Numbered from the whole stretch's first letter, positions 6,536 to 44,090 are shown. The stretch is 63,533 nt of DNA, filler included, from Atractiella rhizophila (GCA_021432655.1; 3 parts of 2 records of this genome joined end to end with filler, not necessarily neighbours in it), one strand, 5' to 3'. The notes: generated from the sequence alone by a model not told the origin. Made by a program: numbers and translations.

Positions 6536-9500
6536 TCAGCTCGCACAAAGCAGTGATGTTAGAGCACTACCTGAATCATTTTGACACGTCGTCGTTAATC
6601 TTTCCGTTTCATCAATCTTCTGAAGCAGATTGTCGCAGTCATCTACATCGGACGTGGCAAAACAATCCGAGTAAAGCTGACGGGCACGACCAACTTCCTC
6701 TCGCGCGACGGGGTATTGGGACGATTGGAAGAGGAGTTGGGCCAGATTCTGTCTGCTCCGAGCTTCGTAGTGGCCGCCAACTGCTTTGCTCAAATTGACT
6801 GCTTCCTGCAGAACGTCGATTGCTTTGAACACACTCTGGGAGTCTCCAGCATAAACCGTGCTTATATTGAAAAGACAGTTAAGTTGACCTCCTAGGTCTT
6901 GATCCAGGAGGTACAGCTCCTTTGCCTCCTCGAAACGGCTCAGAGCTTCATCCATCTGACCCCGATGCTGCTCGATCTGCCCAATACTGCGAATACAATG
7001 GGCTTGCCCTGGTAGATCTTCTACCACCTGGTACAGCTCCTTCGCCTCCTCGAAACGCCCCAGCGCTTCCTCCATCTGGCCCCGATGCTGCTTGATCTCC
7101 CCGATGCTGCGAATGCAGTGGGCTTGCCCCAGCCGATCTTCTACCACCTGGTACAGCTCCTTCGCCTGCTTGAAACGGCGCAGAGCTTCATCCCTCCGAC
7201 CCCGGCGGTGCTCGATCTCCCCGATGCTGCGAATGCAGTGGGCTTTCCCCTGTTGATATGCTACCACCTGGTACAGCTCCTTCGCCTCCTCGAAACATCT
7301 CAGCGCTTCCTCCATCCGACCCCGATGCTGCTCTCTCTCCCCGATGCTGTAAATACAGTGCGCTTGCCCTAGCCAATCTTCTCCCACCTGGTGCAGCTCC
7401 TTTGCCTCCTCAAAGAATTTCACCGCTTTTTCCATCTGCCCTCGATGCTTCTCAATCTCCCCCATGCTGCGAATACAGTGGGCTGTCCCCTGTTGATTTT
7501 CTACCACCTGGTACAGCTCTTTCGCCTCCTCAAAACATCTCAGTGCTTCCTCCATCTGGCCCCGACGTTGTCCGATCTCACCTATGCTGCGAATGCAGTG
7601 GGCTTTCCCCTGTTGATCTTCTACCACCTGGTACAGCTCTTTCGCCTCCTCAAACCATCCCAATGCTTCCCCCATCCTACCCCGATGCAGCTCGATCTTC
7701 CCGATGCCGCGAATGCAGTGGGCTTGCCCCTGCCGATCTTCCACCACCTGATACAGTTCCTTTGCCTCCTCGAAAAGTTTTAGTGCTTTCTCCATGTTCC
7801 CTCGATGCTGTTCAACCTCCCCTATGCTGTGAATGCAGTGAGCTTGCCCTTGCCGATCTTCTACCACCTGGTACAGCTCTGTCGCCTCCTCAAAACATCT
7901 TAGTGCTTCCTGTATCTGACCCCGATGTCGCTCGATCTCCCCCATGCTGCGAATGCAGTGGGCTTTACCCTGTTTATATTCCACCACCTGATACAGTTCC
8001 TTTGCCTCCTCGAAAAGTTTTAGTGCTTTCTCCATGTTCCCTCGATGCTGTTCAATCTCCCCTATGCTGTGAATGCAGTTGGCCCGCCCCAGCCGATCTT
8101 CTACCACCTGGTGCAGCTTTTTTGCCTCCTCGAACAGTTTCACCGCTTTTTCCATCTGCCCTCGATGCTGCTCTATCTCCCCCATGCCACGAATGCAGTG
8201 GGCTTGTCCCTGCCGATCTTCTACCACCTGGTACAGCTTATTTGCCTCCTCGAAACATCGCAGTGCTACCTCCATCCGACCCCGACGCCGATCCATCTCC
8301 CCGATGCTTCGAATGCAGTGGGCTTGTCCCTGCCGATCTTCTACCACACCCCGACGCCGATCCATCTCCCCGATGCTTCGAATGCAGTGGGCTTGTCCCT
8401 GCCGATCTTCTACCACATGGTACAGCTCCTTTGCATCCTCGAAGAGTTTCACCGCTTTTTCCATCTGCCCTCGATGCTGCTCGATCTCTCCCATACTGCG
8501 AATGCAGTGGGCTTTCCCCTGTTGATTCTCTACCACCTGGAACAGCTCCTTCGCCTCCTCAAAACATCTCATTGCTTCCTCCATCCGACCCCGACGCTGC
8601 TCGATCTCCCCGATGCTGCGAATGCAGTGGGCCTGCCCCAGCCAATCTTCTACCCCCTGGTACAACCCCTTCGCCTCCTCAAAATATTTCAACGCCTGTT
8701 GTGGCGCCTGCTTCTGCCTGACTGCGAATCCCATAGCCATAGTCAATTTAGCGCTGAATTTCACTGGTAAACTCATTGACTGTATGATGGACAGAGCATG
8801 ATGCAGTAATTCGATCGATAGAAGGTGCTGGAGATACTGAAAGTGCCAGATTTCCACAAGGAAACAGACCAGTTTTGTCGAATCTTGTAGATGGTCAAAA
8901 CCGGCCAGAACCACATACTCAAGATTTGGATGATCGTTGCGGAAGCACAACAGCCCTATCCGTTTGCCCTCAACTTCGAATCGTTGGATATTTTCCCGAG
9001 CTTTGTGCATAAGACGCTCAGTAACGGGCTCAAGGGAGGGGACGATGGTTTTAAAACCAAGATCAGGATGTAAGACTGAGTAGTTGACATGTTCACGAAT
9101 TGGCACAAGCATCCTCAATCGTGTTGAGTTTGTCAAGCCGTCTTCGTCAGTTTCAGCGAGTCCGACGGAGAAAATTGAAGTGATGACCTCGTAGGATTTC
9201 TCTGAATCAAGAAGGCAGGATTTCTCCGTAAGTGCGACAATGTCCGTGTCCAAAAGCCCATCAGGTGTCCAGGACAGAGCGGCAAGTATAAACGTGCTTA
9301 GGTCGTGATGCATTTTGAGAAGAGGTAAGCTAAGGGAAAAAGATATCGACGTTGCAAGAGTTGGAGTCTCCTCGCTGTCCTTGTCCCATAGCACCTTTGT
9401 CTTCTTTGCCTCCCACTCCTCTAACAGAGTTGGAATATGTTTCGTTGACTCTGCGTTGGCACGAAGAACAAAGAGCTTGATCGACAAAGTGTGATGATCC

Positions 9501-11244
9501 AGCTTAGCGAACATGGTCTTGAGCACCTGTGCCGTACAAATCTTTCTTCCCGTGTACAAGTGCTTGAACAAGTCCAGCCAGGCAGCGTCAGATAAGCCTC
9601 TAATTGTCAGCTCTCGAAATTCCACATCTGTGACGTTCACTCGATAGATTCGATGTCCCCGATGGGCTACGATGAGAATGGACCCCAATGTACTGTTTGC
9701 AGAAAGAAGAGCTTGAAAGAATGGCTGCAGGTGCTCCGTGTCACGCTCTGCGGTGGTTTCAAAATTGTCCAAGATAAGGAGACACTTGTGACGGTGAAAA
9801 TATCGAGCAACAGCACCAAGTTCACTTTCACCTGGTCGAGGTGCTATTGCAAAGACATGCCGGCAAACATAAGTGGCAAGTGATGAAAATGTAGAGAAAG
9901 CATCGCATCGGGCCCAGAACCGAAAGTCTTCCTCCTCACCACCCGCAATCGTCGTGAATCCATCTTTGACTTCCTTCGCATGCAAGATTTGTCGGGCCAC
10001 AGTAGACTTCCCATTGCCAGCGCCACCGATGATTGCAAGATGTTTTTTGTCGGTGAGGATGCACTTGATTGCCGTCGCAACTTCGTCATCTCTTCCATAA
10101 CAATCTCCTGTATGAGGCAACGGAAGCTTCCTGGGCACAGCAATGCGTTGTTTACAGCCTAATCAGGAGCAAGTCAGCATGCTGCCATCAATCACGCAAC
10201 ATGGAGAATACTTTGCACAAGCGACCTCGTCGCGGATGAAACTTCATGACTCATTGCCTCCATGTAAGCATTAGTGCAGCCCACAACGTCCTCCTTTCGC
10301 TCCCATTCCTCCCACCTGAAGTCTTCGAATGTATCAACCGAGAAGCGATGATAGCAATGACCCATCTCGCGGTCCTGCATCTTCACCTTCACGCCATTCG
10401 AAACATTCGAGCAATCCGCCACTATCGCTTTCAGCGCTTCTTCGAAGTTAGCCCGAATATGGCTCAACTTGACTGCCCTTCCAACCCCCGGCCCGAGAGA
10501 CACAAGACAGGCAATCTCACCGCTGGGTCCCCAAATCCGCTTGGCTTCATCGATGGCTACCAATGTAGGGTTGTTGGTGCTAAGCTGAACGTAGCCGGTG
10601 GAATCTTCGTTCATGGGAGGAAAGAAAGGAGGACAGGCAGACATAGCCCTTGCAGCTTGCCAGACGAAATATGGGGAAGCGGATTGAGAGGCAGATCCAG
10701 CATGATGAATGTCGTAGGTGCGCATCTCCGTGGAGACGACAACGTTGGCTTGATAGCTAGAGAGGACGAATGTCCTGCACCTATCCTGCAGAGAAGGGTC
10801 CTTCATAGGAAGAGGCTTAGTCGGATCTTCAGGGGTAGGCGTGTGTCGCTGGATGATGGAGATCAAAGCCTCTTCGAGTTTCTTCGCCGAGAACAAGTAC
10901 TCGGCACTGGGGTCCGAATCCTCTTCAACAAATCCGTCTCGCGTGATCTCTTCGTACGCTGTAATGCACTGACGTACTGTCATCCCCAGCCTCCCGAGCA
11001 TAAGTGCGATCCACCCGCCAGTAGAAGTCCCACAAATGAGATCGAAGACATCGCAAGGCCGAAGCTCTTCGTCTTCCGGGACTTTGAGAAGATGTGCGGC
11101 TTGATGTATGATGCGTTCGAGCATGTAAGCTGCTGAGAAAGTACCGACGCCTCCATTGTCGATAGAAAGGACCCGTAGTCCGAGAGGATTTGCTTTCTTG
11201 ATATTCTCGGGGACCTTGAACACCTTGACGGAATTCGCGAACAT
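6536..11244 (-). CDS. Fungal NLR-like protein: patatin-like domain + NB-ARC/STAND NTPase + TPR repeats (copy 1, intact, 2 exons, about 1551 aa)
   Basis: Exon 1 (ATG 11244..10212): LRVLSIDNGG, FDLICGTSTGG, WQAARAMSACP, CLVSLGPG. Predicted 53-nt phase-1 intron 10159-10211 (GTATTC...GCTGAC...TTAG) joins it in frame to exon 2 (10158..6536). Exon 2 has Walker A GGAGNGKST, Walker B LLILDNFE and 14 40-aa TPR-like repeats. Confidence 0.9.
6905..8680 (-). repeat. 120-bp tandem repeat array (14 full 40-aa TPR units plus a 69-bp internal duplication)
   Basis: Consensus FEEAKELYQVVEDRQGQAHCIRSIGEIEQHRGQMEEALRR. On the + strand ctaccacctggtacagct recurs every 120 bp (7021, 7141, 7261...). Confidence 0.97.
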
Positions 11245-12777: not shown

Positions 12778-14250
12778 TCAATGTACAACTATAGCTAGGT
12801 TTCTTGCGCTACCGCTTTCCTCCTGATCGAACAGATTCCACAATTGCAGCTTAAGCTCCTTGCCCGCGTTCTCGTCTACGGCCAGTCGCTCTTGCAACAG
12901 CAAAGCAAGCCCAGTGAATCTCTCCAACACAATGTAGCTCTCCAACACTGGTCCGAGAAGACATCTGAGTGTCCAAAAGAACATGAACTTTTCTCCTTCC
13001 CACGCTCCTTGAGGCTCAAGTCGTGCAACGTCATTCCCATTGAGATGCATCTTCTTCAACGCTTTTGAACGAAAGATCTCGTATGAAAGAAAACTGGAGT
13101 CCGCCAGTCTACCCACCCTATTCTCAGAAGGAGAAGGAGCCTCAGATGCTTCGAGCTCTACTTGAAGACGTGCTCAATAGACAAGTTTGCGCATGGATAG
13201 TTTGGCGGATTCCCAGGATGACGTTGAAGACGACCACAGGATGGAAGACTGAGTGGCGAGAACAAGGTGGTTGTGAGTGAAAGTAGGAGAAACGTAGGAT
13301 GGATGAAATGGGGAAGTCTTGAGCGAGACATATGAGAATATTCAACAACAGATTGACCGGAGAGAAACCCACTGGAAGAGGAAGTAAGATTGTAGCAACA
13401 CCCAATCGGGATCAAGACATCTTGACGTTCCGCACTCCCAGAGCTAACGAAAGCGCGCAACATGTCGACAGTAAGATCTCCACAGACATGCAGAGCACAA
13501 ACGAGCCTTCCCTCATCCTTGTCCGCACGTCCTTCCTGCAGAATTCTCCTGATACCGTTCTCATCCAACACTTCCGCTTTCAACGTCAATGTTCCTATCT
13601 TCTCTTCCTCCTCCTCTTTCTTCTTATAATTCAAACGGTTTGAACTAACTTCTCTGCTCCACTGACTTGAGAGGAGCTGCCCTCAATCGCACAGACATCA
13701 AGAAGCAGTGGCTCTCTGGTCAAAGCAGCAGAAAGGTGTGCTCGTCCCGATCCAATATCAATCGCGCTCGTAATCTGCGGTTTATTGGACAGGAGCGTTT
13801 GGGCATGTGCAATGAAGCCATCGACCTCATGCGCTTTCTTCGGAGACATGCCATGGGGCAAGCCCCCAGTGAACACTTTGGAGGTGCTGGAGATGGAATG
13901 TCAAGATGACGTCGCCCTGATTCCTTTGCCGACGCTTTCCCAGCTGAGAAGGGGTTTGCTGTTTGGCTTCCGAGGAAGAGAGAATTCACGACAACGGTTT
14001 GTGAATGCTTTCAGTGAAGCAGGAGCGTCTAGCTAAGCGGCATTTCAGCCAATGTTTCTCGAAATGAAGATTAATATTGCAGATAAATGTATGTGACAAG
14101 TTGAGAAGGGAATCTCCGGGAGCAGGGAAAGCCAATTCCTACATGCCCAGTGACGTTGTAGGGTTGGGACAAAGCCACCGTGTTGAATTTTTGGTCTAAG
14201 CCATTTAATAGCGAGCAGGGGTATGTCGAAGACGGTGCTCTGCCATTGGT
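12778..14250 (-). pseudogene. METTL25/RRNAD1-like methyltransferase pseudogene, copy 2
   Basis: MSPKKAHEVDGF...AIDIGSGRAHLS, LHVCGDL...IPIGCCYNL, FWTLRCLLGPVLESYIVLER. Frameshift after GAEKLV (~13640) that is absent from copy 1. Confidence 0.78.
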
Positions 14251-14629: not shown

Positions 14630-15815
14630 GTTGAGTCATGCCCTCCGCCCGCAACACGTTCTTTGCTTCGCTCCATTTCCTCCGTTCCAACTCGGCGAGA
14701 GTTTGCGGCATCGACCACTGCATCCGCTCCCAACGTAACGTATCTAAACATCGAAACACTCCTTCCTCCGACAAACGCTCTTGCCTGCACCTCCAACCCG
14801 TGCACTCGACTATCAACCACCATCGCTCCCGTCACCGCTCCATCGTCCATCTCCTCCCGTCTACAACTCGTCGGATCTCTCCAATCATGACTGTCGACTT
14901 GAACGACACGTAGCCAGTTAGGATGCGAGCAACGAACTCGCTAACAACGACTGGTTGAACAGAGGACGGATGGGGAGGGAGAGCGAGCGGTGTATGTGTC
15001 GCCTTTCGACCACAAGGTTATCACACAGGGAAATACCAGTCTGGTTTGGGAAATCAAAGACCAAATGGGAAGAGGGCTTCAAGCGGCATAGAATACATGT
15101 CTGTATTGGGGGTGGTGGATTGCATGGAGTAGTGCTGATGGGACATGAAGAAGTACGCTGGGATCACGGTGCGCTTGCACTCCTTATCCTCCTCTGCATG
15201 AGATCCACAGCTGATTCGTTCAACCAAATGGAGTAGCACCAGTCCCTGTTATCGAAACGAGAGGAGCGGCATCGCTCCACGCCTCCCTCCTTGCCTCATA
15301 CACGGACCACAGTGCGCTGACTTCAAAACTCGTATCATTGGAAGCAATTACCTCCATCGCCGGCTCGTTGGGTGCAAAGACCGTCTAGAAAGAATGTATA
15401 ACACATTGCCTTACTCACAAAGGAGGCGTAACGAGTGTGGTAGTTGAAGACGCAAGGGTAGTGGACATGATTGAACGGTTTGCTGGTTCGTCTTCCTACC
15501 TGCTTGCTTTCATCAACAAAATCGTCTGGGGCTTATAGGGATCGACAGATGACCATCAAATCCTCGTCAAACCTGCCGTCGCAGGGTCTTGCACCTTTCT
15601 ATGCAGATGGAGCGCCTGAGGTCTTGAAGAAGATTTCAAGGGATCTGCCGAAGGACAGAGCAGCCGTGTTTGTCGTTTTTGTTTGTGGAGGGAGTCAGGT
15701 GTCAATGGCGAAATTGATGGAGTGGAAACCACGGTTTGAGGACGTGCCGTTGGGGGATATTAAGGTCTTTCTTAACTGGATCTGTGACGGTGGCGTTTCG
15801 TTTCCACAAACCTGA
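14630..15815 (+). pseudogene. L-serine/threonine dehydratase pseudogene, copy 2
   Basis: VYVSPFDHKVITQGNTSLVWEIKDQMG, IGGGGLHG, ITSIAGSLGAKTV*, DDHQILV, VVFVCGGSQVSMAKLMEWK. Contains stops and frameshifts. Confidence 0.72.
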
Positions 15816-15980: not shown

Positions 15981-18900
15981 TCAGCTTGCACAAAGCAGTG
16001 GCGTTAGAGCACTACCTGAATCATTTTGACGCGTAGTCGTTGATCGCTCCGCTTCATCGATGTTCTGAAGCAGATTGTCGCAATTATGGACGTCGGATGT
16101 GGCAAAACAATCCGAGTAGAGCTGACGGGCGCGACCAACTTCCTCTCGCGCGACGCGGTATTGGGACGATCGGAAGAGGAGTCGGCCCAGATTCTGTCTG
16201 CTCCGAGCTTCGTAGTAGCCGCCAACTGCTTTGCTCAAATTGACTGCTTCCTGCAGAACGTCGATTGCTTTGAACACACTCTGGGAGTCTCCAGTGTAAA
16301 CCGTGCTTATACCGAAAAGACAATTAAGTTGACCTCCTAGGTCTTGAGCCAGCAGGTACAGCTCTTTCGCCTCCTCGAAACGGCTGAGCGCTTCCTCCAT
16401 CTGACCCCGATGCTGCTCAATCTCCCCGATGCTGCGAATGCAGTGGGCTTGCCCCTGCCGATCTTCTACCACCTGGTACAGCTCCTTCGCCTCCTCGAAA
16501 CGGCTCAGCGCTTCCTCCATCTGACCCCGATGCTGCTCAATCTCCCCGATGCTGCGAATGCAGTGGGCTTGCCCCTGCCAATCTTCTACCACCTGGTACA
16601 GCTCTTTCGCCTCCTCGAAACGGCTGAGCGCTTCCTCCATCCGACCCCGATGCTGCTCAATCTCCCCGATGCTGCGAATGCAGTGGGCTTGCCCCTGCCG
16701 ATCTTCTACCACCTGGTACAGCTCCTTCGCCTCCTCAAAACTTCTCAGCGCTTCCTCCATCCGACCCCTATGCTGCTTGATCTTCCCGATGCTGTGAATG
16801 CAGTGGGCTTGCCCCTGCCGATCTTCTACCACCTGGTACAGCTCCTTCGCCTCCTCGAAACGTCGGAGTGCTTCCTCCATCTGACCCCTATGCTGCTAAA
16901 TCTCCCCGATGCTGAAAATGCAGTGAGCTTGCCCCTGCCAATCTTCTACCACCTGGTACAGCTCCTTCGCCTCCTCGAAACGGCTCAGCGCTTCCTCCAT
17001 CCGACCCCGATGCTGCTCAATCTCCCCGATGCTGCGAATGCAGTGGGCTTGCCCCTGCCGATCTTCTACCACCTGGTACAGCTCCTTCGCCTCCTCAAAA
17101 CGTCCCAGCGCTTCCTCCATCCGACCCCGATGCTGCTCAATCTCCCCGATGCTGTGAATGCAGTGGGCTTGCCCCTGCCGATCTTCTACCACCTGGTACA
17201 GCTCCTTCGCCTCCTCAAAATGTTTTAAGGCTGTTTGAGGAATTCCCTGCTGTTGAAATGCAAGACCCATTGCCATTTTCAATTCGGCTTTGAAATTCAT
17301 TTGAAAACTATCGGATTTCGTGGTTGATACAGCCTGCTGCAACAGTTTGATTGAGAGAAGGTGCTGGAGATACTGAAAGCGCCACATTTCCACAAGGAAA
17401 TGAACCAACATCGTCGAATCCTGCAGATGTTCAAAACCGACCAGAAGCACATATTCAAGGTTTGCATGGTCGTTGCGGAAACACAACAACCCTATTCGTT
17501 CACCGTCCACTTCGAATCGTCGCCTATTTTCTCGAGCTTTATCCATGAGACGTTCCGTTAGGGGCTTAAGGGACGGGACAGTGGTTTTAAAAGGAGGATC
17601 GCATTGACAGACTAAGCGGTTGATGCATTCGCGAATCGGTGAAAGCATGCGTAGTCGTATCATGTTTGCCAGGGCATCGTCCGTGTTTTCGGCGAGTCCA
17701 GTGGATAAAATCGAGGTAATGACCGTATCTGCGTCCGAATCCTTCAAATCAGGAAAACAGGAATCGTCCGTAACAGCTCTAATATCATCGTCAAGAAGTC
17801 CGTCAGGGGTCCAGGATAGGACAGCGAGGATGAACATGCTTAGGTCTCCATGTTTTGTCAGCAGAGGTGAACTGAGCGAAAAAGATATCGAGGTCGTAAG
17901 AGTTTGAGTCTCTTCACTATCTTCTCCCCACAGCACTTCCGTCTTCTTCTTCTCCCACTCCTGCAACAACGTAGAGATCCGTTTTGTCGATGCGTTGGCA
18001 CCCAGAACAAAGAGCTTGATCGACAAGGTGTGATGATCCAGCTTGGCGAAAATGGTCTTGAGTAGTTGTTCTGCACAATCCTCCTTTCCCGTGTACAGGT
18101 GGTTAAACAGCTTCAGCAAGGCTATATCACTTAGGCCGCCAATCGACAGCTCTCGAAATTTCACATCTGTGACGTTCACTCGATAGATTTGATGCCCCCG
18201 ATGTGCCACAATCAGAATGGACCCTGAGGCATCGCAGTCTGAAAGAATTGTCTGAAAGAATGATTGCAAGTTGTCTGCATCGGACTGTGCAGGAGTTTCG
18301 AAATTGTCTAAGACAAGGACACATTTGTGACTACCAAAATATCGTGCAGCGGCACCGAGTTCGGTTTCTCCAGGTAGAGGGGCTATTCCGAAGACCTGCC
18401 TGCAAAGGTATGTAGAGAGAGATGAAAATGTAGAGAAAACGTCGCATCGTGCCCAGAACCGAAAGTCTTCCTCCTCGTTCTCCGCAATGGTCGTGAATGC
18501 ATCTTTGACTTCCTTCGCATGCAGGACCTGTCGCGCCACAGTAGACTTCCCATTGCCAGCGCCACCGATGATTGCAAGATGTTTTTTGTCGGTGACGATG
18601 CACTTGATTGCCGTCTCAACTTCGTCATCTCTTCCATAACAATCTCCTGTATGAGGCAACGGAAGCTTTCTGGGCACAGCAATGCGTTGTTTACAGCCTA
18701 AACAAGTGCAAGTCAGATGCCGCCATCAATCACGCAACATGGATAATACCTCGCACGAGCGACTTGGTCGCAGAGGAAACTTCATAATTCATTGCCTCCA
18801 TGTAAGCCTTTGTGCAGCCCACAACGTCCTCCTTTCGCTCCCATTCCTCCCACCTGAAGTCTCCAAATGTATCAACCGAGAAGCGATGATAACAATGATC

Positions 18901-19557
18901 CATCTCACGGTCTTGCATCTTCACCTTCACTGCCTTCGCAACGTTTGAGCAATCCGCGACTATCGCTTTCAGCGCTTCGTCAATATCATCCCGAGTGCAG
19001 CCCAACTTGATAGCCCTTGCAACCCCCGGACCGAGAGACACAAGACAAGCAATCTCACTGTTGGGTCCCCAGATTCGCTTGGCCTCGTCAAGAGCTGCTG
19101 TAGCAGGGTTGTTGCCACCCAGCTGGACGTAGTTGGTGGAATCCTCACTGATATGAGGAAAGAACGGAGGACCAGCGGACGTAGCCCTTGCAGCTTGCCA
19201 GACAAAACATGAGGAAGCGGGTCGAGAGGCAGATCCAGCATGATGAATGTCGTAGGTGCGCATCTCCGTGGAAGCGACGACGCTGGCTTGATAGCTAGAG
19301 AGGACAAACGTCCTGCACCTATCCTGCGGGCAAGGGTCCTTCATAGGAACGGGCTTCGTCGGATCTTCAGGGGTAGGCGTGTGTCGCTGGATGATGGAGA
19401 TCAAAGTCTCTTCAAGCTTCTTCGCCGAGAACAAATACTCGGCAGTGGAGTCCGAATGCTGTTCAAAAAAGCCGTCTCGCGCGATCTCTTCGTACGCTGT
19501 AATGCACTGACGTACTGTCATCCCCAGCCTGCCGAGCATAAGTGCGATCCACCCGCC
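15981..19557 (-). pseudogene. Patatin-NB-ARC-TPR NLR copy 2: single nonsense codon in TPR repeat 3; 5' end lies in the gap
   Basis: Patatin exon 19557..18750 and conserved intron 18698-18749 (GTATTA...TTAG). NB-ARC exon has GGAGNGKST and VLVLDNFE. GAG>TAG at 16896-16898, after which the same frame continues to 15981 with a C-terminus matching copy 1. Confidence 0.85.
16350..17220 (-). repeat. 120-bp tandem repeat array (7 near-identical 40-aa TPR units)
   Basis: cagtg(g/a)gcttgcccctgcc recurs at 16441, 16561, 16681, 16801, 16921, 17041 and 17161. Confidence 0.97.
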
Positions 19558-19734
19558 NNNNNNNNNNNNNNNNNNNNNNNNNNNNNNNNNNNNNNNNNNN
19601 NNNNNNNNNNNNNNNNNNNNNNNNNNNNNNNNNNNNNNNNNNNNNNNNNNNNNNNNNNNNNNNNNNNNNNNNNNNNNNNNNNNNNNNNNNNNNNNNNNNN
19701 NNNNNNNNNNNNNNNNNNNNNNNNNNNNNNNNNN

Positions 19735-21878: not shown

Positions 21879-22897
21879 CGATTAAGGAGAGGTAGGATAA
21901 CGACCGCGGCTGAAACAGGGCTTCGAAATCATGTGTCTCTGCTTCTGAACGTTCCGCGCCGTTCGCTCTGCGCTCGCTCGCTGAAACTGTCAGTTGGGAG
22001 CAAAAGTCAGAACTTCGAAAACTCAGACCGATCCTGGGAAGCCAGCCGCATCAGACCTTCGTCTGCATCTTTATTAGATATCGGCGCAGAAAATGACGGA
22101 TTTGACTAAGTTTGGAGGGCCTTTGGTTTGTTTGAAAGAGACAACTTGAAGGGACAACCTGCAGGAAAGGGCAACGCTTGACTAGTCCTTCTGGCCTGTG
22201 CCCCACTACACCTCTTGCAAAGAGTTCTTTGGAATAGGAAGGAATATGCCAATAGGAATCTCACCTCCTTCAGGAACATATAGTCCATAACTGAACTGCT
22301 CAATGTCGCGCCTGCTCTTGCTCTGTTCACGTCATACTCTCCCTAGGGGGCCAAACTTCAGCTTCCTGCTTCAAGCTTCAAGCTAAAACGAGGCTTTTGG
22401 ATATCAGCCTGAGAGAGGGACGTTAAACATTTGATTTTACCTTAGTTCATTCCTACCAGTGGTTTGGTAAACATTTCGACTTGTCTTTGCTTACAAGATT
22501 TGCTTCTATCAGAACAGCTTAGTCTCCCCTTTGCAACTACTGGTGGATCTGCATTTCGAAAATTTATCCGCCTAAATACGCGAACCACCGATAGATGTCC
22601 AAGGCCACCAAGGCTGCGTTTAAAGAACTTGCATTCACACCTTTCGCTTCGAGGATATGCTTCCTTTGCATCTGTAGACTCTCTTGTGAAGACATCTCAG
22701 AGTGATCCGTATCCCGACGAAGCCATAATTTTGGGGGATGACACAGTGAGTTCTTCCTTCATGCTGGTGAATTGCCCGCGAATTGATTGGTGAATAGCAG
22801 GCACAGTTAGAAAGTGATCTCAAGTCTCGACTGCATGCTCTGTTGAGTCTACTTGGTGTGCCTGATCTATTGACGACAGCGCCATCCAGACCGCCAG

Positions 22898-24790
22898 ATG
22901 CAGAGGAAGCGGCTCCCACATTCATCTTCGGTGATGGCACCGACACTTTCTTGCGTATACGAGAATGTAGGAAGTCGGTCAGAGCCATGGATGAACTTAT
23001 TCAATCGCTATCTCACATTGCTAACCTCCCGGATCAGTAGTTCGACACTTGCAGATTCACTTGACGACATTTTCATTGGATTCTTTCTTCTGCAGATGCA
23101 TAAGGAAGCTTGTGCCTGGGGAAAATTAGCCAGCGATGCTTACCGTGCCTCTGATTCCCCTAACTCGGCGGGTCATTCTCGTTTGTTGCATAACTTGGGA
23201 AGCGTTTATGAGTATTTGGGAGATCAAGCATCTGCACTGAAAGCTCGAGTGGAATGTATCGAGATCGAAATCAAACGGCAACTGGTCCTTCAAGCGGAAG
23301 AAGCGAGAGATTCTACCCAGCGGCGGTTGCATCTCCAGGGTCTCGCAGAGTCGCTAAATAATCTCTCCGCATCTCTTAATGACGAACCTTCAAAACTGCT
23401 TGGTCTCCTTGAAGAGAGCCTTGCACATAGGAGAATTTGTTTGACCAGTCATGAAGGCTTCTCGATCGATGCTGTTGAAAAGGCGCTCGTACCATTGAGA
23501 AACTTGGCTATCCGTTTTATCACTGACTCGGAGAATGTGCAGCGCTTCACATCCCTGCTTATAGAGCATTCAACATTTTTTGAGCGACTTCTTCTGACCT
23601 TGAATTCTCAGTCAGACGTGCCAAAAAGCCACCTGGGTTACATTTGGGGATATTTTGGCGATGCGATGGGAATTGCTTACCATAACGGAAAGCAAAAGAA
23701 GGACAATGCAGTAGAAACGTTTTACGAGCTCTCTTGCTCCGCGTACCGTCGATCGTCGGAGTTGTTGAATCTCATGTTGACTTCAGCCTCTCCTATTGAA
23801 GGGCCTCATCGTGCGATGGCCGCCAAACATCTCTGGGATTATTCCCAAAGATTTGTGCGCCTTTTGTTACGCCATCGAGAGTTCCAATCGTGTGTTGTTG
23901 AGGTTGATAAGGCCCTGGACATTGCCAAAACTCATCTCAAAGGCGACTGGAAAGTTGCTGCCTCTGCACATCGGATAATGTCATGGAAACTGGAATGTCT
24001 GTATGAGCTTAACTGGCCTCTTCTACGAGAGAAGATATACGACAAGTCGCTTACAGAGGACGATCCTGAATTGGAATGGCTAACAAGCCCGTGTTTGTCC
24101 TTTGGGTTCGAATTTCTGCCAGCTCTCCAACTTCCAGAACCCAAAATTGTCCACATCACCACCCGGGAGGAATTGGTGAACCAGAAAGAACAATTTGATG
24201 ATTTGACCTCTTTCTATTTCGCTCACATCGGATACTATGGTCGAATGAACGTGCACATCCTTGCTGTTCCGTACTGTGAGATGATCGTGCATGGTTTTCA
24301 GGATAGCATCGCCCAAATAGAGGCGCTGAAACCTTTGACGGAATATGATCTGCTCATTCTTCGACACACCAAGACAGCGATGGCCTATGCCCAACGGTAC
24401 GCTGCCATCGCCCACACTTTGTTCCGCAATCTTGACGACGCCGAAACCTTTGTCAACGCTGCCATCACAAGCGAATTCGAATACGAACCCACAATCGGCC
24501 TCGTGTCTGCGTACCATATACGCTCAGCTGTACTCTCACGTCGTGGTCAGAACGAAGAAGCTGGCGAGTGGCTGCAGAAGTGTTTGGACATGATGGAAAG
24601 GACGGTTGGAGTCGAAGGTCCTTCAGGTCAACTTGATGACCTTTATCGGACTGTCCTGCAGATCGTACAGGACGACGCCACAAAGCTCCAAAGGAAAGAT
24701 ATCGCTCAGCGCACGCTGGAGCGAGCGACTGAGAAGGGTTGGACCTTGTCGATCACGGGTAAACCTGCCTTCTTCCTTGCTGATGGTTAA
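22898..24790 (+). CDS. TPR-like alpha-helical repeat protein (5' exons uncertain)
   Basis: 630-aa open frame with TPR-like segments (SRLLHNLGSVYEYLGDQASALKAR, GLAESLNNLSASL, SAYHIRSAVLSRRGQNEEAGEWLQKCLDM). Possible upstream exon with a GTGAGT donor near 22746. Confidence 0.6.
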   Translation: MQRKRLPHSSSVMAPTLSCVYENVGSRSEPWMNLFNRYLTLLTSRISSSTLADSLDDIFIGFFLLQMHKEACAWGKLASDAYRASDSPNSAGHSRLLHNLGSVYEYLGDQASALKARVECIEIEIKRQLVLQAEEARDSTQRRLHLQGLAESLNNLSASLNDEPSKLLGLLEESLAHRRICLTSHEGFSIDAVEKALVPLRNLAIRFITDSENVQRFTSLLIEHSTFFERLLLTLNSQSDVPKSHLGYIWGYFGDAMGIAYHNGKQKKDNAVETFYELSCSAYRRSSELLNLMLTSASPIEGPHRAMAAKHLWDYSQRFVRLLLRHREFQSCVVEVDKALDIAKTHLKGDWKVAASAHRIMSWKLECLYELNWPLLREKIYDKSLTEDDPELEWLTSPCLSFGFEFLPALQLPEPKIVHITTREELVNQKEQFDDLTSFYFAHIGYYGRMNVHILAVPYCEMIVHGFQDSIAQIEALKPLTEYDLLILRHTKTAMAYAQRYAAIAHTLFRNLDDAETFVNAAITSEFEYEPTIGLVSAYHIRSAVLSRRGQNEEAGEWLQKCLDMMERTVGVEGPSGQLDDLYRTVLQIVQDDATKLQRKDIAQRTLERATEKGWTLSITGKPAFFLADG

Positions 24791-29779: not shown

Positions 29780-32003
29780 CTAGATCCCCTCAATCCCTAA
29801 TCCCCTTTCTCCGCCGTGGCCAGCCATGAGCCTCTGCATCCTCTCACCCGCTCGCCCACTAGCTCTTCCACCCCCAACCGGACTTCCGAGAGCTCGATTG
29901 TTCACCAAGTTCCTCTTGGACGGGCTAGAATGATGCATCATCATCGTCGGAGTTGCCATCACGCTTCCAGCACCAGGAGTATACAAGCCTGGCTCAGCCC
30001 ACCACCCCATTTTCTGGGTCCCAGTCATCGGCGGCGTCCAAGGAAGTCCACGGACGCCCGCTCCCCTCGAAGGTGTCTCATTCGCGTTCCAATGCGCAAT
30101 CGCCTCCCCTTCCATGGCCCTGTACTCCTCAATCGTTGGCCGGCCAGGGGTCCACATCGGATTGCTAACAGTAGGCGGCTTTCCGTACGGCTCATTGATG
30201 ACGGGGACGCCACCGACCATTTTCAGTGCTGCTGAGCTCCTACGTAGACCTTGCACGGAAGCAGAAGGGGTTTGGTCGTAGAATGGATCCTTGGTGTAGA
30301 CCTGTGGAGGAGTGACCGGTCGGTACTCTGTGTCGATTCGCGGAGTGGTCGGCCCACGACGATAGGCAAAGGCTGAGGTGGGAGTGGGAGTGGGAGGAAG
30401 AGAATGAGTCGGAGGTCGTGGACGCGCTTTGGGACGGAGACCGCCGGAGCAACGGAAGCAGTACCATTCGTCGCCGAGCTCTTCTGCGTCTGAGAATCCG
30501 AGACAAGAGAGGTGGAACCAGACGTGACAAGCGTCGCATTGCACCATGCCTGTCCATTAACGAACGGTAAGGTCAGTAAAAGGATCATACTACAGTGAGA
30601 GAACGAGGGAGGCATACATTCGCCATCGTCTCCACGAGAACAGACGCAGCTATCATCCACCGGTCCGGTCTTCTTTCGCCTCCTCATCGCACCATCTGCC
30701 TTTGCTGGCGACTCCCCTGGACTTGACTCCGGTTCTTCAACCCCCTCCTCCTTTTCCTCGGGCTCTTCGTCTCCTCCTCCGCCTTCCTTGCATCCATCTT
30801 CTGCTTTTTGACCCTTAACAAGGTGACGAGTCCCCTTCCGCCGATAGCGACTTCGTCCTTGGATTCGATGTATGGATTGTCATCCTCGACGACGCTCATG
30901 CCATCGTTCGCAAAGGACGCAGTAGGTTGGAGCGTGAGCGGGGGCGGAAACTTCTCGTCTGCGCTCGAAGATTCGTCCATGAGCCAATCCTCGATCCTCC
31001 TCTTCCTTTCTCGGGACGCTATGTCGTCCTTCCAACCCTTTTTGCCACCAATTCCCTCATACTCCCACTCGTAGAGTTCTCCACCACCAAGAGGTTTGAC
31101 CGGGACCTGAGAAGGATGAGGATCGGGTTCGTCAATTGGCCAACCCATAGCAAGGAGATAGTCGCGGGAGACAATACAGCGTCCCATGCTGCTCAACTCT
31201 GCTTTCACGACCTTGACATCTGCATGTTCTCCTTCTCTCTTCTCTTCAAAAGCCTTCAACCACCTCTGAACTCCTCTCCTCCTCTCTTCTTCCCGCTTCC
31301 TCCTCATGTCCTCCTCATTCCCATTCCCGGCGGCAGAAGAAGAAGGAACAGACGGAAATCCATCCTCCTCTCCCACCGCCACTCCGCCCTCGTAGGTCCA
31401 CACCACCCGTTCCTCTCTCTCTCCCACCTCCACCCTTGCCCGACCACTGTCATCCAACTCACACACAAACCCCCTCTTCATCCTAGGACCCTTCCAATCT
31501 TTCATCTTCGGAACGACTTTCTCACCCTCCACTTTCTCTCCCGAAAGCGAGACATCAAGACAACGTCCCTTCGCAGGTGAGAGGAGCACAGACACCTCTG
31601 GCACCGGCATTGGCTGCGGTGGATCTCCGGAGGTCATAGCGTTTCCGATCTTTTCGTCGTTTTGAGAGTAAGCCTGAGGGGACGGTGGGGGGTCCTCTGC
31701 GTCCGCCGGCGGAGGGAGGAGCGACTTTTTCTTTTGTTGTTGGCGTTTCGGCTTCGGCTTCGTCTTGGTCTTTGAACGGGACGCGGATCCTTTGCGGACC
31801 ACTTTGAACATGTCCGTGAGACGAGTTTGGGAGGGATCGTGCTCGTCGATGGCCGGAGCTGGAGAGGGTGAAGGCTCCGGAGTCAAGTCTGGGGACATTG
31901 CGTGGTCGTTTGAAGGCGTGGGCGAGGTTGAGAGGGACGAAGCGGATGAGAGGAAGCTAGGTAGAAGGTGGGTCAACTTTTCTTGTTGGTTGTACATCTC
32001 CAA
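29780..32003 (-). CDS. PHD-finger protein with long disordered regions
   Basis: Cys4-His-Cys3 finger CVC...|MVQCDACHVWFHLSCLG...WYCFRC, split by an intron near 30555-30618. A frame change near 30690-30800 is needed to join the upstream 439-aa ORF (indel or unrecognised intron). Confidence 0.7.
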
Positions 32004-41459: not shown

Positions 41460-43319
41460 TCACGCGTCTGGAGCCTCCGAGACTGTTGACCAGTTGCTCT
41501 TGTCTTTCATCGTCCTCCTAGCTGTCTCCATGTCCTCCTCCTCCCACTCCCCAAAAAATAAACGAACAGTCAGAAGCCTCCCTCTCCGTTCTCTCCATTC
41601 TTCCTCCCCGATCATCTCTGCCGATACGTTCTCCTCATTCACTTCACCTTCCTCCCGACTCCCAAAGAACCAACGCATGAATTCTGGGAAACCGAGCCAG
41701 TCCACCAGGCAGTATTCAACGCGTATGGTTTTTATTCCTCTCGCATTTCGAAGAGTGCCGAAGAACTGTCGGTCTATAAGGTTTGAAGTTTCCTTGCCAC
41801 CGTCGACGGAGATGGTGGTGAGTCGGTTGAGGGTTGATAGCTCGAGGGGAGTGGGTAGGATGGAAACATCTCCATCAGCGGCGTAAGGTGCTAGAAGGAT
41901 CTCCAAGTGCTCTAAATATGGAGGCAGAGGGCTACTCAATATAGAGGAAGGGAGAGGACACATATAACTGAGACTCAGGTCCAGCATGCTGTCCGGTAGG
42001 TGGAGGGATGGGAGAGGCGGGTACCGCTGCAGCAATAGGATTGCGAAGCCTGGAAGCAATTGAAGGCCGCCTGATGCTGAAGGCGCAGAGGAGGAAGAAG
42101 AATCCTCCACGTCGGTTGCGCTGAGATGTCTGATCCTTCCGGTCATCCTTCGATTGAAGCCCTCCACCTCCTCTTTCCTCCATTTTCTCGAACCCATTTC
42201 AAATCTGACCTCCTTCACCCTTCTAAACGTTTCAATCATATCCAAGACCTGCCTCGCCTCCCGTTCGTTCCAAAGTGCATTGAGCGTCACTGCTGTAACA
42301 TTTGGCGAACCCGTGACGAGTTCTTTGACCATCGTAACAGTGATATCTTTTTTCAACCACAGTGACTCCCACATACGCCCTGAATCAGGATAAAGTTTCA
42401 AGCGAGCATGCTTCTCCGTCGCATAGTCAGGCTCACTCCAATAAGCAGCTGAAATATGCTTCCAGTGGTGACACACGAGAGAGAGCTCGCGCATGACGTA
42501 ATATCCTCTGTCTCTAATCTGGCTAAACGCGAGGAACTGAAAGATGCTGGAGAGAATCTCAACCGGAAGCCTGGAGATAAAACATGACGTGACGCCTGAG
42601 GTAGGAGAGAGCGAAAGTTGAATAATGCTCGTTGTTCTTTGAGGGAGAGGCGACGTTTGGTCATCAGTGATGGGGACAAACTCCCGTCCATCAGAAACAC
42701 GTAAAGCAATAGGGGCGAAGATGGCTTGAGAGCGATTATCTAAAGGAAGAGAAAACACGCGAGAGAAGCGCATTGTGTCTGGTGGTGGATGGTCCGAATC
42801 CACGCTTGCAGCTCCACGGCCGCCTTCGAAGCTTGCCACCACCTTTTCCCAATCGAGGCTGACGCAAAGATTGGCTACACCAGCGTTGTCGACTACGGTT
42901 GCAAGCGGTTCAAGCGGAAAGTCGAACAGTTTTGACGATGACTGCGGGCTTGTCCACTTCGTAGGCAAGAAAAAAGTTATACGGAGCTCGTGCATGGTTG
43001 GAGGTAGCCAGGATAGGAAAGAGGGAAGAATGCAGAGCTGGAGAGAATAACTGTGCCAGTGTAGCGATGGCGTGATGAAATTGACCAGTGCAGTAGAACT
43101 TGATACTTGAGTGTGCTGGCATACGATAGACATTTGCTGCTCCATCGTTTCCTTAACCCATAAATTGTATAAGATGGGAAGGACAGTGGTGAGAAAGATC
43201 AATCTTGCCGGCATTGTATCGTCGCAGGACAAAACTTTATTAAACCTGACCATCCTCAGAATGATGAACATCATCGAAACTGGGAACATGGCTGTGACAA
43301 AGACGACCAGAAGGGACAT
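41460..43319 (-). CDS. F-box protein with RNI/LRR-like C-terminus (true start probably internal)
   Basis: ISRLPVEILSSIFQFL...LSLVCHHWKHI F-box motif followed by LxxLxL-type repeats in a 619-aa open frame. Confidence 0.75.
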   Translation of the reverse strand: MSLLVVFVTAMFPVSMMFIILRMVRFNKVLSCDDTMPARLIFLTTVLPILYNLWVKETMEQQMSIVCQHTQVSSSTALVNFITPSLHWHSYSLQLCILPSFLSWLPPTMHELRITFFLPTKWTSPQSSSKLFDFPLEPLATVVDNAGVANLCVSLDWEKVVASFEGGRGAASVDSDHPPPDTMRFSRVFSLPLDNRSQAIFAPIALRVSDGREFVPITDDQTSPLPQRTTSIIQLSLSPTSGVTSCFISRLPVEILSSIFQFLAFSQIRDRGYYVMRELSLVCHHWKHISAAYWSEPDYATEKHARLKLYPDSGRMWESLWLKKDITVTMVKELVTGSPNVTAVTLNALWNEREARQVLDMIETFRRVKEVRFEMGSRKWRKEEVEGFNRRMTGRIRHLSATDVEDSSSSSAPSASGGLQLLPGFAILLLQRYPPLPSLHLPDSMLDLSLSYMCPLPSSILSSPLPPYLEHLEILLAPYAADGDVSILPTPLELSTLNRLTTISVDGGKETSNLIDRQFFGTLRNARGIKTIRVEYCLVDWLGFPEFMRWFFGSREEGEVNEENVSAEMIGEEEWRERRGRLLTVRLFFGEWEEEDMETARRTMKDKSNWSTVSEAPDA

Positions 43320-44090
43320 TTCTGAGGGAACGGCAGCGCAATTGGAGAGCTGTTGAGACGGTGGAAGGAGACGTCGTATATTGCACGTTCTGTTTCAGCG
43401 AGACTTCAAGCGCGTTGCTGTAGGGATACCTTGCCGATAGAAGAGATAAAGTCGCCCAACACCCGGTGCAATACCCGCGAACAATGAAGGCTCCAAATGT
43501 CTAAATAGAACCAAATGCACCTCTTGTCTCCGAAACGTCAATGTATTGTTGCACATTTAACAAGCACGTTGCTTGTTCGAGGAAAGGATCGGAGTGATGG
43601 GTCTGTTTCGAGCGTATTCAAGTTCTTTTGGATGTCGGAAGCTTGTGGACGTGAAGGGATGCGAGACTTTTCGCGCCCCGTCTCCAGAATCCTTCCCGAT
43701 GAAACCTCACGACTATCTCACTTCTTGAGAGCCGTGGGATTGAAAGGTCGCTAAGCGCTGTTTTCAATGTCTGCTGAGTTCACCTCTTGTGAGGTCTGCT
43801 GAACTTTGGTATTGTAACTCCACAATCCGGCCAGCTCCGTTCACGATCCTCCCGTCATGCAAGATTTGGACGCTTAATCCGCCTTGTGGCTTGTTCTGCT
43901 CTGGTTCATCTAAGCTGAAAGCGCTGACGGCGAGAAGTTAGACTAGTGTGACGATATGATGAGGTGAGGAGACACAGGAGGGAGATAAGAAAATAGGGCT
44001 GACGCGCGTCGCGTGAGTGTCGCATCTCCCGATCCAACTGTGATTCGAATTTCGAAAGCAGCACTGTGGTGCCTTTGGACGTAGGCCGTC

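What the first reader, a model, noticed from the sequence alone, without database searches (positions are those of the whole stretch)
10560..11180. Patatin effector domain looks catalytically dead in both copies (pseudo-phospholipase NLR)
Seen: in copy 1 the GTSTG nucleophile is intact but the oxyanion motif reads DNGGVGT instead of DGGGxRG (this part of copy 2 is in the gap). The catalytic DGG position reads YVQLSTNNP in copy 1 (Gln at 10585-10587) and YVQLGGNNP in copy 2 (19123-19125). Known: patatins need the Ser-Asp dyad, and PLP-1 death signalling depends on lipase activity. Inference: the shared loss predates the duplication while the ORF stayed open, so the domain may act as a lipid sensor, decoy or scaffold, or the NLR may be a sensor that needs a helper.
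Basis: partly seen in the sequence, partly recalled or inferred. Interest (0 to 1): 0.8.

Follow-up and report, generated by a model that had tools for sequence, protein, structure and literature searches.

The report
Patatin NLR without catalytic aspartate
Two neighbouring fungal immune-receptor-like genes carry a well-folded patatin lipase domain that keeps its active serine but has lost the partner aspartate and the phosphate-binding arginine, a state shared by a whole gene family in Atractiella and seen repeatedly in other fungi.

Summary
Both copies are minus-strand fungal genes encoding patatin + NB-ARC + TPR NLRs. Copy 1 reads SIDNGGVGT, not DGGGxRG. It keeps GTSTGG, and YVQLSTNNP stands where relatives have YVDGGxGxNNP. 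Copy 2 reads YVQLGGNNP; its N-terminal third lies in an N gap.

In a 183-row alignment the dyad column is Asp in 145 rows and Gln only in the two window copies. The DGG triplet has collapsed to one variable residue (Q, A or L) in a supported clade of 9 rows: the window pair plus seven Atractiella rhizophila proteins. So the loss is older than the duplication.

The domain is not decaying:
- dN/dS between the copies is 0.29, against 0.24 for NB-ARC.
- The AlphaFold2 model has pLDDT 88 and matches patatin-17 at Z 35.
- A spliced contig of a close paralogue confirms the intron.

In AbCapV, among the closest solved matches, D192A abolishes hydrolysis, so canonical lipolysis is unlikely here. "Dead" is not proven, because I had no model coordinates and plant GxGxG patatins are reported active.

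The case is not unique. 46 of 158 fungal patatin domains examined lack a dyad residue, several of them in other NLRs. Copy 2 also carries an in-frame TAG. I rate it a new variant of a known kind, of moderate interest.

The parts
6536..11244 (-). Copy 1 gene: patatin + NB-ARC/NACHT-like + about 17 TPR units, 1551 codons in two exons. The start is taken at the first ATG, 11244; upstream exons are not excluded.
   Evidence: Translations; Pfam (Patatin 1.2e-12; TPR_12 2.5e-90; NACHT 6.1e-08)
10212..11244 (-). Copy 1 exon 1: the complete patatin domain (residues 1-344 plus 1 nt)
   Evidence: AF2 model pLDDT 88.2, pTM 0.90. VIA Z 35.2, rmsd 2.6 over 305 residues against 1oxw_A
10159..10211 (-). 53-nt phase-1 intron (donor GTATTC, branch GCTGACT, acceptor TAG)
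   Evidence: Sequence. A contig of run X3 (record 17) joins exon-1 sequence ending ...GTGC+AAA directly to 10158 (tables 5, 5c, 8)
6536..10158 (-). Copy 1 exon 2: NB-ARC/NACHT-like NTPase and TPR array, including the stop codon
11140..11160 (-). Degenerate anion-binding / oxyanion loop DNGGVGT (residues 29-35), where the family has DGGGxRG
   Evidence: family columns G 149 / N 12; R 140 + K 7; G 150
11017..11031 (-). Nucleophile elbow GTSTG (Ser74), intact
   Evidence: invariant within the clade
10621..10653 (-). Conserved Ser/Pro block ARAMSACPPFF (residues 198-208) between Ser and the Asp position, present
10567..10593 (-). Loop YVQLSTNNP (residues 218-226). Gln220 (10587..10585) stands where relatives have DGG; 2-residue deletion
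   Evidence: DSSP: strand 216-219, loop, helix 227-238, block pLDDT 93-96
10001..10027 (-). P-loop GGAGNGKST of the NTPase domain, intact
   Evidence: Read from the translation; NACHT/AAA_22 matches
18750..19557 (-). Copy 2 exon 1, visible part (equivalent to copy 1 residues 76-344), 81% amino-acid identity to copy 1. Gln at 19125..19123 in YVQLGGNNP
19558..19734 (.). Assembly gap (N run) hiding copy 2's oxyanion loop and nucleophile
15981..18697 (-). Copy 2 exon 2 (NB-ARC + TPR), 73% amino-acid identity to copy 1 in the NTPase/arm part
16896..16898 (-). In-frame TAG in a copy 2 TPR unit, where the other units read GAG (IGEI*QHRG)

Best explanation
The two genes are tandem paralogues of a lineage-specific family, known so far from Atractiella rhizophila, of patatin-NB-ARC-TPR NLRs. 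In this family the N-terminal patatin domain has kept the full patatin-17/CapV-type fold and the nucleophile elbow. It has lost the general-base Asp, because DGG is reduced to one variable residue. It has also lost the Gly, Arg and Gly of the phosphate/oxyanion loop.

The domain most likely no longer hydrolyses phospholipids by the Ser-Asp mechanism. It is nevertheless kept by selection as the receptor's output module. I infer, without a test, that after ligand sensing by the TPR array and NTP-dependent oligomerisation, the clustered patatin-fold domains act non-catalytically. They might bind or perturb membranes or lipids, or recruit other factors.

Shown: the motif states, the fold, clade-wide sharing and purifying selection. 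Inferred: loss of hydrolysis and the non-catalytic output.
For: Motifs:
- DNGGVGT, GTSTGG and YVQLSTNNP in copy 1; YVQLGGNNP in copy 2.
- The Asp column is D in 145 of 183 rows and Q only in the window copies.
- The family profile's 'eyvDgglgynNP' aligns to EYVDGGLFANDP of solved CBASS patatins.

Role of the missing residues: in AbCapV (Foldseek E 4e-14; Z 29.9-31.5) S58/D192 form the dyad and R21 of the Gly loop points at the substrate phosphate. D192A abolishes hydrolysis and growth arrest but not filament formation (PMC12480259, passages).

The replacing residues vary within the clade: Q, A or L at the Asp site, and G/C/A/H then T/A/G in the loop. This argues that they have no catalytic role.

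Clade: 9 rows, all Asp-less, SH-like support 96. Their sisters are P0044, which keeps DSGGLRG / GTSIGG / YVDGG, and Asp-less P0051; together 11 rows with support 99. All 10 proteins looked up are from Atractiella rhizophila.

Selection: dN/dS 0.29 over 275 patatin codons against 0.24 over 493 NB-ARC/arm codons. Amino-acid identity is 81% against 73%.

Fold: pLDDT 88.2, pTM 0.90; Z 35.2 against patatin-17.

Rest of the receptor: P-loop intact and copy 1 ORF open. A spliced contig of a ~91%-identical paralogue exists in run X3.
Against: - No activity data and no model coordinates. I could not measure which side chains lie near Ser74.
- Ser74 and the whole block 62-90 are invariant in the clade. 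So are clade-specific Glu173, His299 and Asn30, any of which might rebuild an active site.
- Of the 23 Asp-less rows in which the Ser column is filled, 11 have also lost Ser. This clade accounts for 7 of the 12 that keep it; all 7 clade rows with the column filled do.
- Plant pPLAIII patatins with GxGxG are reported still to hydrolyse lipids (PMC7031755, passages), so motif-based calls can fail.
- The non-catalytic output mechanism is pure inference.
- The AF2 alignment was dominated by canonical sequences, which may flatter the model around the active site.
Confidence: 0.5

Rival explanations
1. The domain is still an acyl hydrolase or transferase. It would use Ser74 with a rebuilt active site, for example clade-invariant Glu173 or His299 as base and Asn30 helping the oxyanion or phosphate site, perhaps on a different substrate.
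For: - GTSTGG is kept in every clade row where it can be seen, although Ser to Gly is tolerated in 31 of 183 family rows.
- Clade-specific invariant residues stand against outgroup residues: N30 (G in 148 of 158 outgroup rows), E173 (L/R/H), H299 (F in 101 of 151), T305 (G).
- dN/dS is 0.29.
- pPLAIII is a precedent for activity without a canonical dyad.
Against: - Three of the four canonical catalytic elements have changed together.
- D192A kills AbCapV.
- 59 of 294 clade positions are invariant, so an invariant Ser is not special.
- Ser74 lies in a structurally constrained block that is invariant throughout.
- No geometry is available for any candidate base.
- His299 also occurs in 11 outgroup rows, and P0044 has it together with an intact DGG, so it predates the loss.
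Confidence: 0.25
2. The dead patatin domain is an integrated decoy or sensor. It mimics a host patatin-like protein targeted by an antagonist, or it signals by like-with-like contact to a separate active patatin or helper NLR that does the killing.
For: - The same Atractiella genome encodes a short sister protein with an intact dyad (P0044, 323 aa).
- Patatin effectors can assemble into filaments (AbCapV).
- Dyad loss recurs in other fungal patatin NLRs.
Against: - Nothing in the window points to a helper. The ORFs of 180 aa or more gave only a TPR protein, a PHD finger and an F-box-like match.
- The clade's short members are Asp-less too (P0041, P0043, P0045).
- No interaction was tested.
Confidence: 0.12
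3. The genes are decaying remnants. The motif losses are simply early pseudogenisation of a redundant NLR family.
For: - Copy 2 has an in-frame TAG in its TPR array and an assembly gap.
- Many Atractiella relatives are short or partial gene models.
- NLR families turn over quickly (general knowledge).
Against: - Copy 1 is open over 1551 codons, with intact splice signals and P-loop.
- dN/dS is 0.24-0.29 at dS 0.32-0.73.
- The same motif state persists across paralogues only 40-57% identical.
- A spliced contig of a close paralogue exists.
Confidence: 0.08

Closest known systems
PLP-1 / HET-Z1 / VIC2-type fungal patatin NLRs (Neurospora crassa plp-1, partner SEC-9)
   Same: Same tripartite architecture of patatin + NB-ARC + TPR. 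Database relatives with this architecture align over the whole domain.
   Different: Reviews state that PLP-1 needs a functional patatin domain and P-loop for cell death; the original paper was not held. Here the Asp and the Arg of the loop are absent. No SNARE/SEC-9-like partner was seen among the long ORFs of the window. No sequence of PLP-1 itself was compared here.
CBASS effectors CapV / CapE (for example AbCapV, PDB 8ZR9, 9JEH, 9KEJ)
   Same: Among the closest solved folds: Foldseek E 4e-14 and Z 28-32. These are immune cell-death effectors switched on by oligomerisation.
   Different: CapV has GGGVRG, S58 and D192, all needed for hydrolysis. It is activated by a cyclic dinucleotide, not by a fused NTPase. 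About 18% identity.
Patatin-17 (PDB 1OXW, 4PKB) and iPLA2-beta (6AUN)
   Same: Whole-domain fold match: Z 35.2, rmsd 2.6 over 305 residues for 1oxw_A; Z 30.3 for 6aun_A. Shares the SLG.G and Y.R strand features.
   Different: These are active Ser-Asp lipid acyl hydrolases with DGGGxRG and DG[AG].
Plant pPLAIII patatins (GxGxG in place of GxSxG)
   Same: A patatin subfamily with an incomplete canonical dyad and altered anion box that is conserved and biologically active.
   Different: pPLAIII lacks the Ser and mostly keeps the Asp. Here the Ser is kept and the Asp is lost. pPLAIII proteins are not part of an NLR.

Membership tests
Patatin-like phospholipase domain (Pfam PF01734 / PNPLA) | Sequence match above Pfam's gathering score | tested here: met
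   Copy 1: 48.9 bits against a cut-off of 27.7, E 1.2e-12. The copy 2 fragment alone scores 19.3 bits, below the cut-off, because its N-terminus is in the gap.
Patatin-like phospholipase domain (Pfam PF01734 / PNPLA) | Patatin alpha/beta fold | tested here: met
   AF2 model pLDDT 88.2. 1oxw_A Z 35.2, rmsd 2.6, 305 residues aligned. Foldseek TM 0.70-0.72.
Patatin-like phospholipase domain (Pfam PF01734 / PNPLA) | Gly-rich anion-binding / oxyanion motif DGGGxRG | tested here: not met
   DNGGVGT in copy 1. The family has G 149 of 183, R/K 147 of 183 and G 150 of 183 at the three changed columns. Copy 2 is hidden by the gap.
Patatin-like phospholipase domain (Pfam PF01734 / PNPLA) | GxSxG nucleophile | tested here: met
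   GTSTG, Ser74, in copy 1. Not visible in copy 2 because of the N run.
Patatin-like phospholipase domain (Pfam PF01734 / PNPLA) | Conserved Pro-containing block between Ser and Asp | tested here: met
   ARAMSACPPFF in copy 1 and ARATSAGPPFF in copy 2. The feature is defined as in PMC7365478 (passages).
Patatin-like phospholipase domain (Pfam PF01734 / PNPLA) | Catalytic Asp in DG[GA] | tested here: not met
   Gln220 with a 2-residue deletion in both copies. The Pfam alignment ends at profile position 177 of 191.
Patatin-like phospholipase domain (Pfam PF01734 / PNPLA) | Lipid acyl hydrolase activity | not testable with these tools
   Needs an enzyme assay or an activity-based probe.
Fungal patatin NLR (PLP-1 type) | N-terminal patatin + central NB-ARC/NACHT NTPase + C-terminal TPR repeats in one protein | tested here: met
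   (Patatin; NACHT 6.1e-08, AAA_22, nSTAND6; TPR_12 2.5e-90). The exons are joined by a 53-nt intron supported by a spliced contig.
Fungal patatin NLR (PLP-1 type) | Intact P-loop | tested here: met
   GGAGNGKST read from the translation.
Fungal patatin NLR (PLP-1 type) | Cell death dependent on patatin catalytic residues | not testable with these tools
   Stated for PLP-1 in reviews. Here the Asp is absent, so if death signalling exists it cannot depend on the canonical dyad.
Fungal patatin NLR (PLP-1 type) | Linked polymorphic SNARE (sec-9) partner | tested here: inconclusive
   No SNARE family among the 16 long ORFs scanned. Only ORFs of 180 aa or more were scanned, genes with introns can be missed, and the window has 9 N runs.

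The most novel reading that the evidence does not exclude
Loss of the Ser-Asp dyad is a repeated, selected outcome in fungal patatin NLRs. At least 12-13 Asp losses and 16 Ser losses are needed on a tree of 158 domains, and several of the affected proteins are full patatin-NB-ARC-TPR proteins. If so, the patatin fold would have a second, non-hydrolytic way of executing or relaying NLR signals, such as membrane binding or perturbation on oligomerisation, or like-with-like recruitment. The Atractiella family, of which this window holds two members, would be the clearest natural test set, because it keeps Ser, lacks Asp, and is under purifying selection.
Probability: 0.22. Interest if true: 0.7.

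Novelty: new variant of a known kind. Interest (0 to 1): 0.4.

Why it matters
Fungal patatin NLRs are thought to kill by lipid hydrolysis, on the strength of one studied example, PLP-1. A conserved and expanded NLR family whose patatin domain cannot run the canonical Ser-Asp mechanism, set among many other dyad-less fungal patatin domains, suggests two possibilities. Either hydrolysis is not always the output, or these domains have another chemistry. Both can be tested directly with the domain from this window and its dyad-bearing Atractiella sister. The result would also show how far enzymatic NLR effector domains can be annotated from Pfam hits alone.

Tried and rejected
- **Alternative Asp from the EDST segment.** Asp214 lies between strands 211-213 and 216-219 in the model's DSSP, i.e. 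at a hairpin turn. I infer this is far from the end of strand 216-219 where the dyad Asp sits. 17 outgroup rows also have D there. I rejected it as a likely substitute, but no distance could be measured because the tools return no coordinates (one search shows none in /data).
- **Coupling between losses.** I tested Asp with Ser, Arg34 with Glu279, Asp with Arg34 and Asp with Glu279 using independent pairs on the tree. All were underpowered (8-9 pairs on starred branches, median p 0.25-1), so nothing can be concluded.
- **Whole-genome paralogue count.** No genome is held for this window.
- **Earlier scan notes.** None exist.
- **Original PLP-1 paper (PMC5878007).** Not held, so the identity of the mutated PLP-1 residues rests on reviews.
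- **Expression.** The runs were Logan contigs only. X1 and X2 (probably DNA, possibly the source sample) cover the region. X5 (RNA metatranscriptome) laid only 8 contigs at 90-99% likeness, which is no evidence of expression. Only the X3 spliced contig is informative, and X3's kind is not on record. The table shown listed no difference at the copy 2 TAG or at Gln220, but 728 differences were not shown, so neither is confirmed or refuted by reads.
- **Literature on dyad-less fungal patatin NLRs.** The searches found no paper addressing it. This covers the held library only, and supplements were not examined.
- **Helper or partner in the neighbourhood.** Searches gave only a TPR ORF (22874-24787), a PHD finger and an F-box-like match.
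- **Misaligned row.** P0070 matches only residues 230-344 and was misaligned. It was dropped from the later counts.

Full report
**What is at the locus**

The finding lies in exon 1 of a minus-strand eukaryotic gene, copy 1.
- The ORF from the ATG at 11244 encodes a 350-residue patatin domain. Pfam Patatin gives E 1.2e-12 and 48.9 bits against a cut-off of 27.7.
- A 53-nt phase-1 intron follows at 10211..10159, with donor GTATTC, branch GCTGACT and acceptor TAG.
- Exon 2 (10158..6536) carries a P-loop NTPase (GGAGNGKST; NACHT 6.1e-08, AAA_22, nSTAND6) and a long TPR array (TPR_12 2.5e-90).
- The CDS is 1551 codons if the first ATG is the start. Some relatives have N-terminal extensions, so upstream exons are not excluded.
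- The splice junction has support. A 322-nt contig of run X3 lies on exon-1 sequence up to ...GTGC, adds AAA, and continues exactly at 10158. It is about 91% identical to both copies, so it comes from a close paralogue or relative. X3's library kind is not on record, though it shows other intron-sized GT..AG skips.

Copy 2 lies 8.5 kb away on the same strand (tblastn).
- Only the part equivalent to residues 76-344 is visible (19557..18750, 81% identical).
- The rest lies in the N run 19558-19734.
- Its exon 2 (18697..15981) is 73% identical in the NTPase/arm part and has an in-frame TAG at 16898..16896, where sister repeats read GAG.

**Check of the observation**

All stated motifs and coordinates are correct.
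- DNGGVGT is at 11160..11140.
- GTSTG is at 11031..11017.
- YVQLSTNNP has Gln220 at 10587..10585.
- Copy 2 reads YVQLGGNNP with Gln at 19125..19123.

I aligned copy 1, copy 2 and 181 database homologues: 37 longer proteins and the best 150 of 3734 hits.

| Column in copy 1 | Counts over 183 rows |
|---|---|
| Gln220 (dyad Asp) | D 145, A 9, gap 7, G 7, S 5, L 3, Q 2, E 2, R 1, H 1, N 1 |
| Ser74 (nucleophile) | S 141, G 31 |
| Asn30 | G 149, N 12 |
| Gly34 (Arg position) | R 140, K 7 |
| Thr35 (Gly position) | G 150, T 8 |

- Two MAFFT runs place a 2-residue deletion either after or before the Q. The accurate statement is that DGG has collapsed to a single residue.
- phmmer against iPLA2-beta puts the target Asp opposite Thr216. 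No alignment yields an acid at this position.
- A profile of 77 family members aligns its 'eyvDgglgynNP' to EYVDGGLFANDP of solved CBASS patatins. This ties the family column to the catalytic DGG block.

**Who shares the state**

- The nearest relatives are 40-57% identical. They read DNGG[IV][CAG][TA], GTSTGG and Y[VI][AL][MVI]G[NK]NNP.
- All 10 proteins I looked up are Atractiella rhizophila proteins, as are the named top hits.
- I built a FastTree tree of the 158 rows with at least 230 filled columns. The trait columns were excluded, and 25 fragmentary rows and the misaligned P0070 were dropped.
- On that tree the window pair sits in a clade of 9 rows, all without Asp, with SH-like support 96.
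- That clade sits inside an 11-row clade (support 99) whose other members are P0044 and P0051. P0044 keeps DSGGLRG, GTSIGG and YVDGG. P0051 is also Asp-less.
- The loss therefore predates the local duplication and most of the family's expansion. Whether the window's organism is A. rhizophila or a relative was not determined.

**Is the domain decaying?**

No.

| Region compared (copy 1 vs copy 2) | Codons | dN | dS | dN/dS |
|---|---|---|---|---|
| Patatin, visible part | 275 | 0.092 | 0.32 | 0.29 |
| NTPase/arm | 493 | 0.175 | 0.73 | 0.24 |

- The lower dS in the patatin exon hints at gene conversion or a different history.
- AlphaFold2 with the 77-row alignment gives pLDDT 88.2 and pTM 0.90, with block values of 93-96 around residues 211-230.
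- The model matches patatin-17 at Z 35.2 (rmsd 2.6 over 305 residues), CapE at Z 32, AbCapV at Z 30-31.5 and iPLA2-beta at Z 30.3. Foldseek agrees.
- DSSP shows the canonical arrangement: strand 23-28 then the Gly loop, strand 69-73 then Ser74 at a helix start, and strand 216-219 then the shortened loop and helix 227-238.

**Does the loss mean 'dead'?**

For:
- In AbCapV the dyad is S58/D192, and R21 of GGGVRG points to the substrate phosphate.
- S58A and D192A abolish hydrolysis and growth arrest while filaments still form (PMC12480259, passages).
- The definition of the family includes the Gly-rich oxyanion hole, GxSxG, a conserved Pro and the Asp (PMC7365478, passages).
- Here the Asp and the Arg are both gone. 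The residues that replace them vary among clade members, which speaks against a new catalytic role at those positions.

Against:
- Ser74 and the block 62-90 are invariant in the clade.
- The clade has its own fixed residues that differ from 164 outgroup rows: Asn30, Trp78, Glu173, Asp214, Ser279 (Glu in 101 of 156 outgroup rows), His299, Thr305 and Trp311. Of 294 clade positions, 59 are invariant.
- I had no coordinates, so I could not test whether Glu173 or His299 reaches Ser74.
- Plant pPLAIII patatins lacking the canonical Ser are reported to retain lipase activity (PMC7031755, passages).
- My estimate is about 0.5 for a functional but non-hydrolytic domain and 0.25 for retained or altered catalysis.

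**Context that lowers the surprise**

- Among the 158 rows, Asp is absent in 25. This needs at least 12-13 changes on the tree, and starred branches force at least 9.
- Ser is absent in 32 of 156 rows, needing at least 16 changes.
- 46 rows lack at least one dyad residue.
- Several of these are full NLR-type proteins from other fungi:
  - P0056 and P0157: Ser to Gly, patatin-NB-ARC-TPR.
  - P0142: both residues lost, patatin-NB-ARC-TPR.
  - P0076: no Asp, patatin-TPR.
  - P0160 and P0180: NPHP3_N/NACHT.
  - P0022: NB-ARC.
  - P0033: Asn at the Asp position.
- These are predicted proteins from databases, and some may be mis-modelled.
- I found no paper that describes this pattern (searches; held library only).

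**Comparison with the known**

- The architecture is that of PLP-1-type patatin NLRs. Reviews say their death signalling needs patatin activity and the P-loop (PMC12881547 and bioRxiv 10.1101/2022.04.03.486892, passages). The original paper was not held.
- The window's proteins meet the architectural features. They fail two of the catalytic-motif features of the patatin family.
- They are best filed as patatin-fold NLRs with a degenerate active site: a new variant of a known kind.
- No SEC-9-like partner or helper was evident nearby.

**Verdict**

Interest is moderate, at 0.4.

Noticed in passing
window 16896-16898 (copy 2, minus strand): In-frame TAG inside a TPR unit (IGEI*QHRG), where the sister units read GAG. 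Copy 2 may be truncated, a pseudogene, or carry an assembly error in a highly repetitive array.
   Followed up: partly
window 6536-8700 and 15981-17260 (TPR arrays): Copy 1 has about 17 and copy 2 about 8 near-identical 42-residue TPR units (EEAKELYQVVEDRQGQAHCIRSIGEIEQHRG...). The unit number differs between the paralogues. Contigs of runs X1-X3 jump between the two arrays (table 5), so the repeat count in the assembly is uncertain.
   Followed up: no
window 10195-11244 versus 8723-10162, compared with copy 2: Synonymous divergence between the paralogues is 0.32 in the patatin exon but 0.73 in the NTPase/arm region. This suggests gene conversion or recombination confined to the 5' part.
   Followed up: no
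window 22874-24787 (+): A 638-aa open frame with TPR_12/TPR_10 matches lies next to the NLR pair, flanked by N runs. No NTPase or effector domain was found in neighbouring ORFs.
   Followed up: partly
window 29783-30556 (-) and 41463-43394 (-): ORFs with a PHD finger (1.7e-08) and an F-box-like match (1.3e-05). Otherwise the long ORFs of the window have no Pfam match.
   Followed up: no
database proteins P0056, P0142, P0157, P0160, P0180, P0022, P0076, P0033: Other fungal NLR-type proteins whose patatin domain lacks the Ser (mostly Gly instead), the Asp, or both. Dyad loss seems recurrent in fungal patatin NLRs.
   Followed up: partly
window 13312-13378 and 15152-15238: Run X3 contigs skip 59-85-nt segments, some with GT..AG ends, in the region between the two NLR copies. 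This suggests an unannotated spliced gene there (table 5).
   Followed up: no
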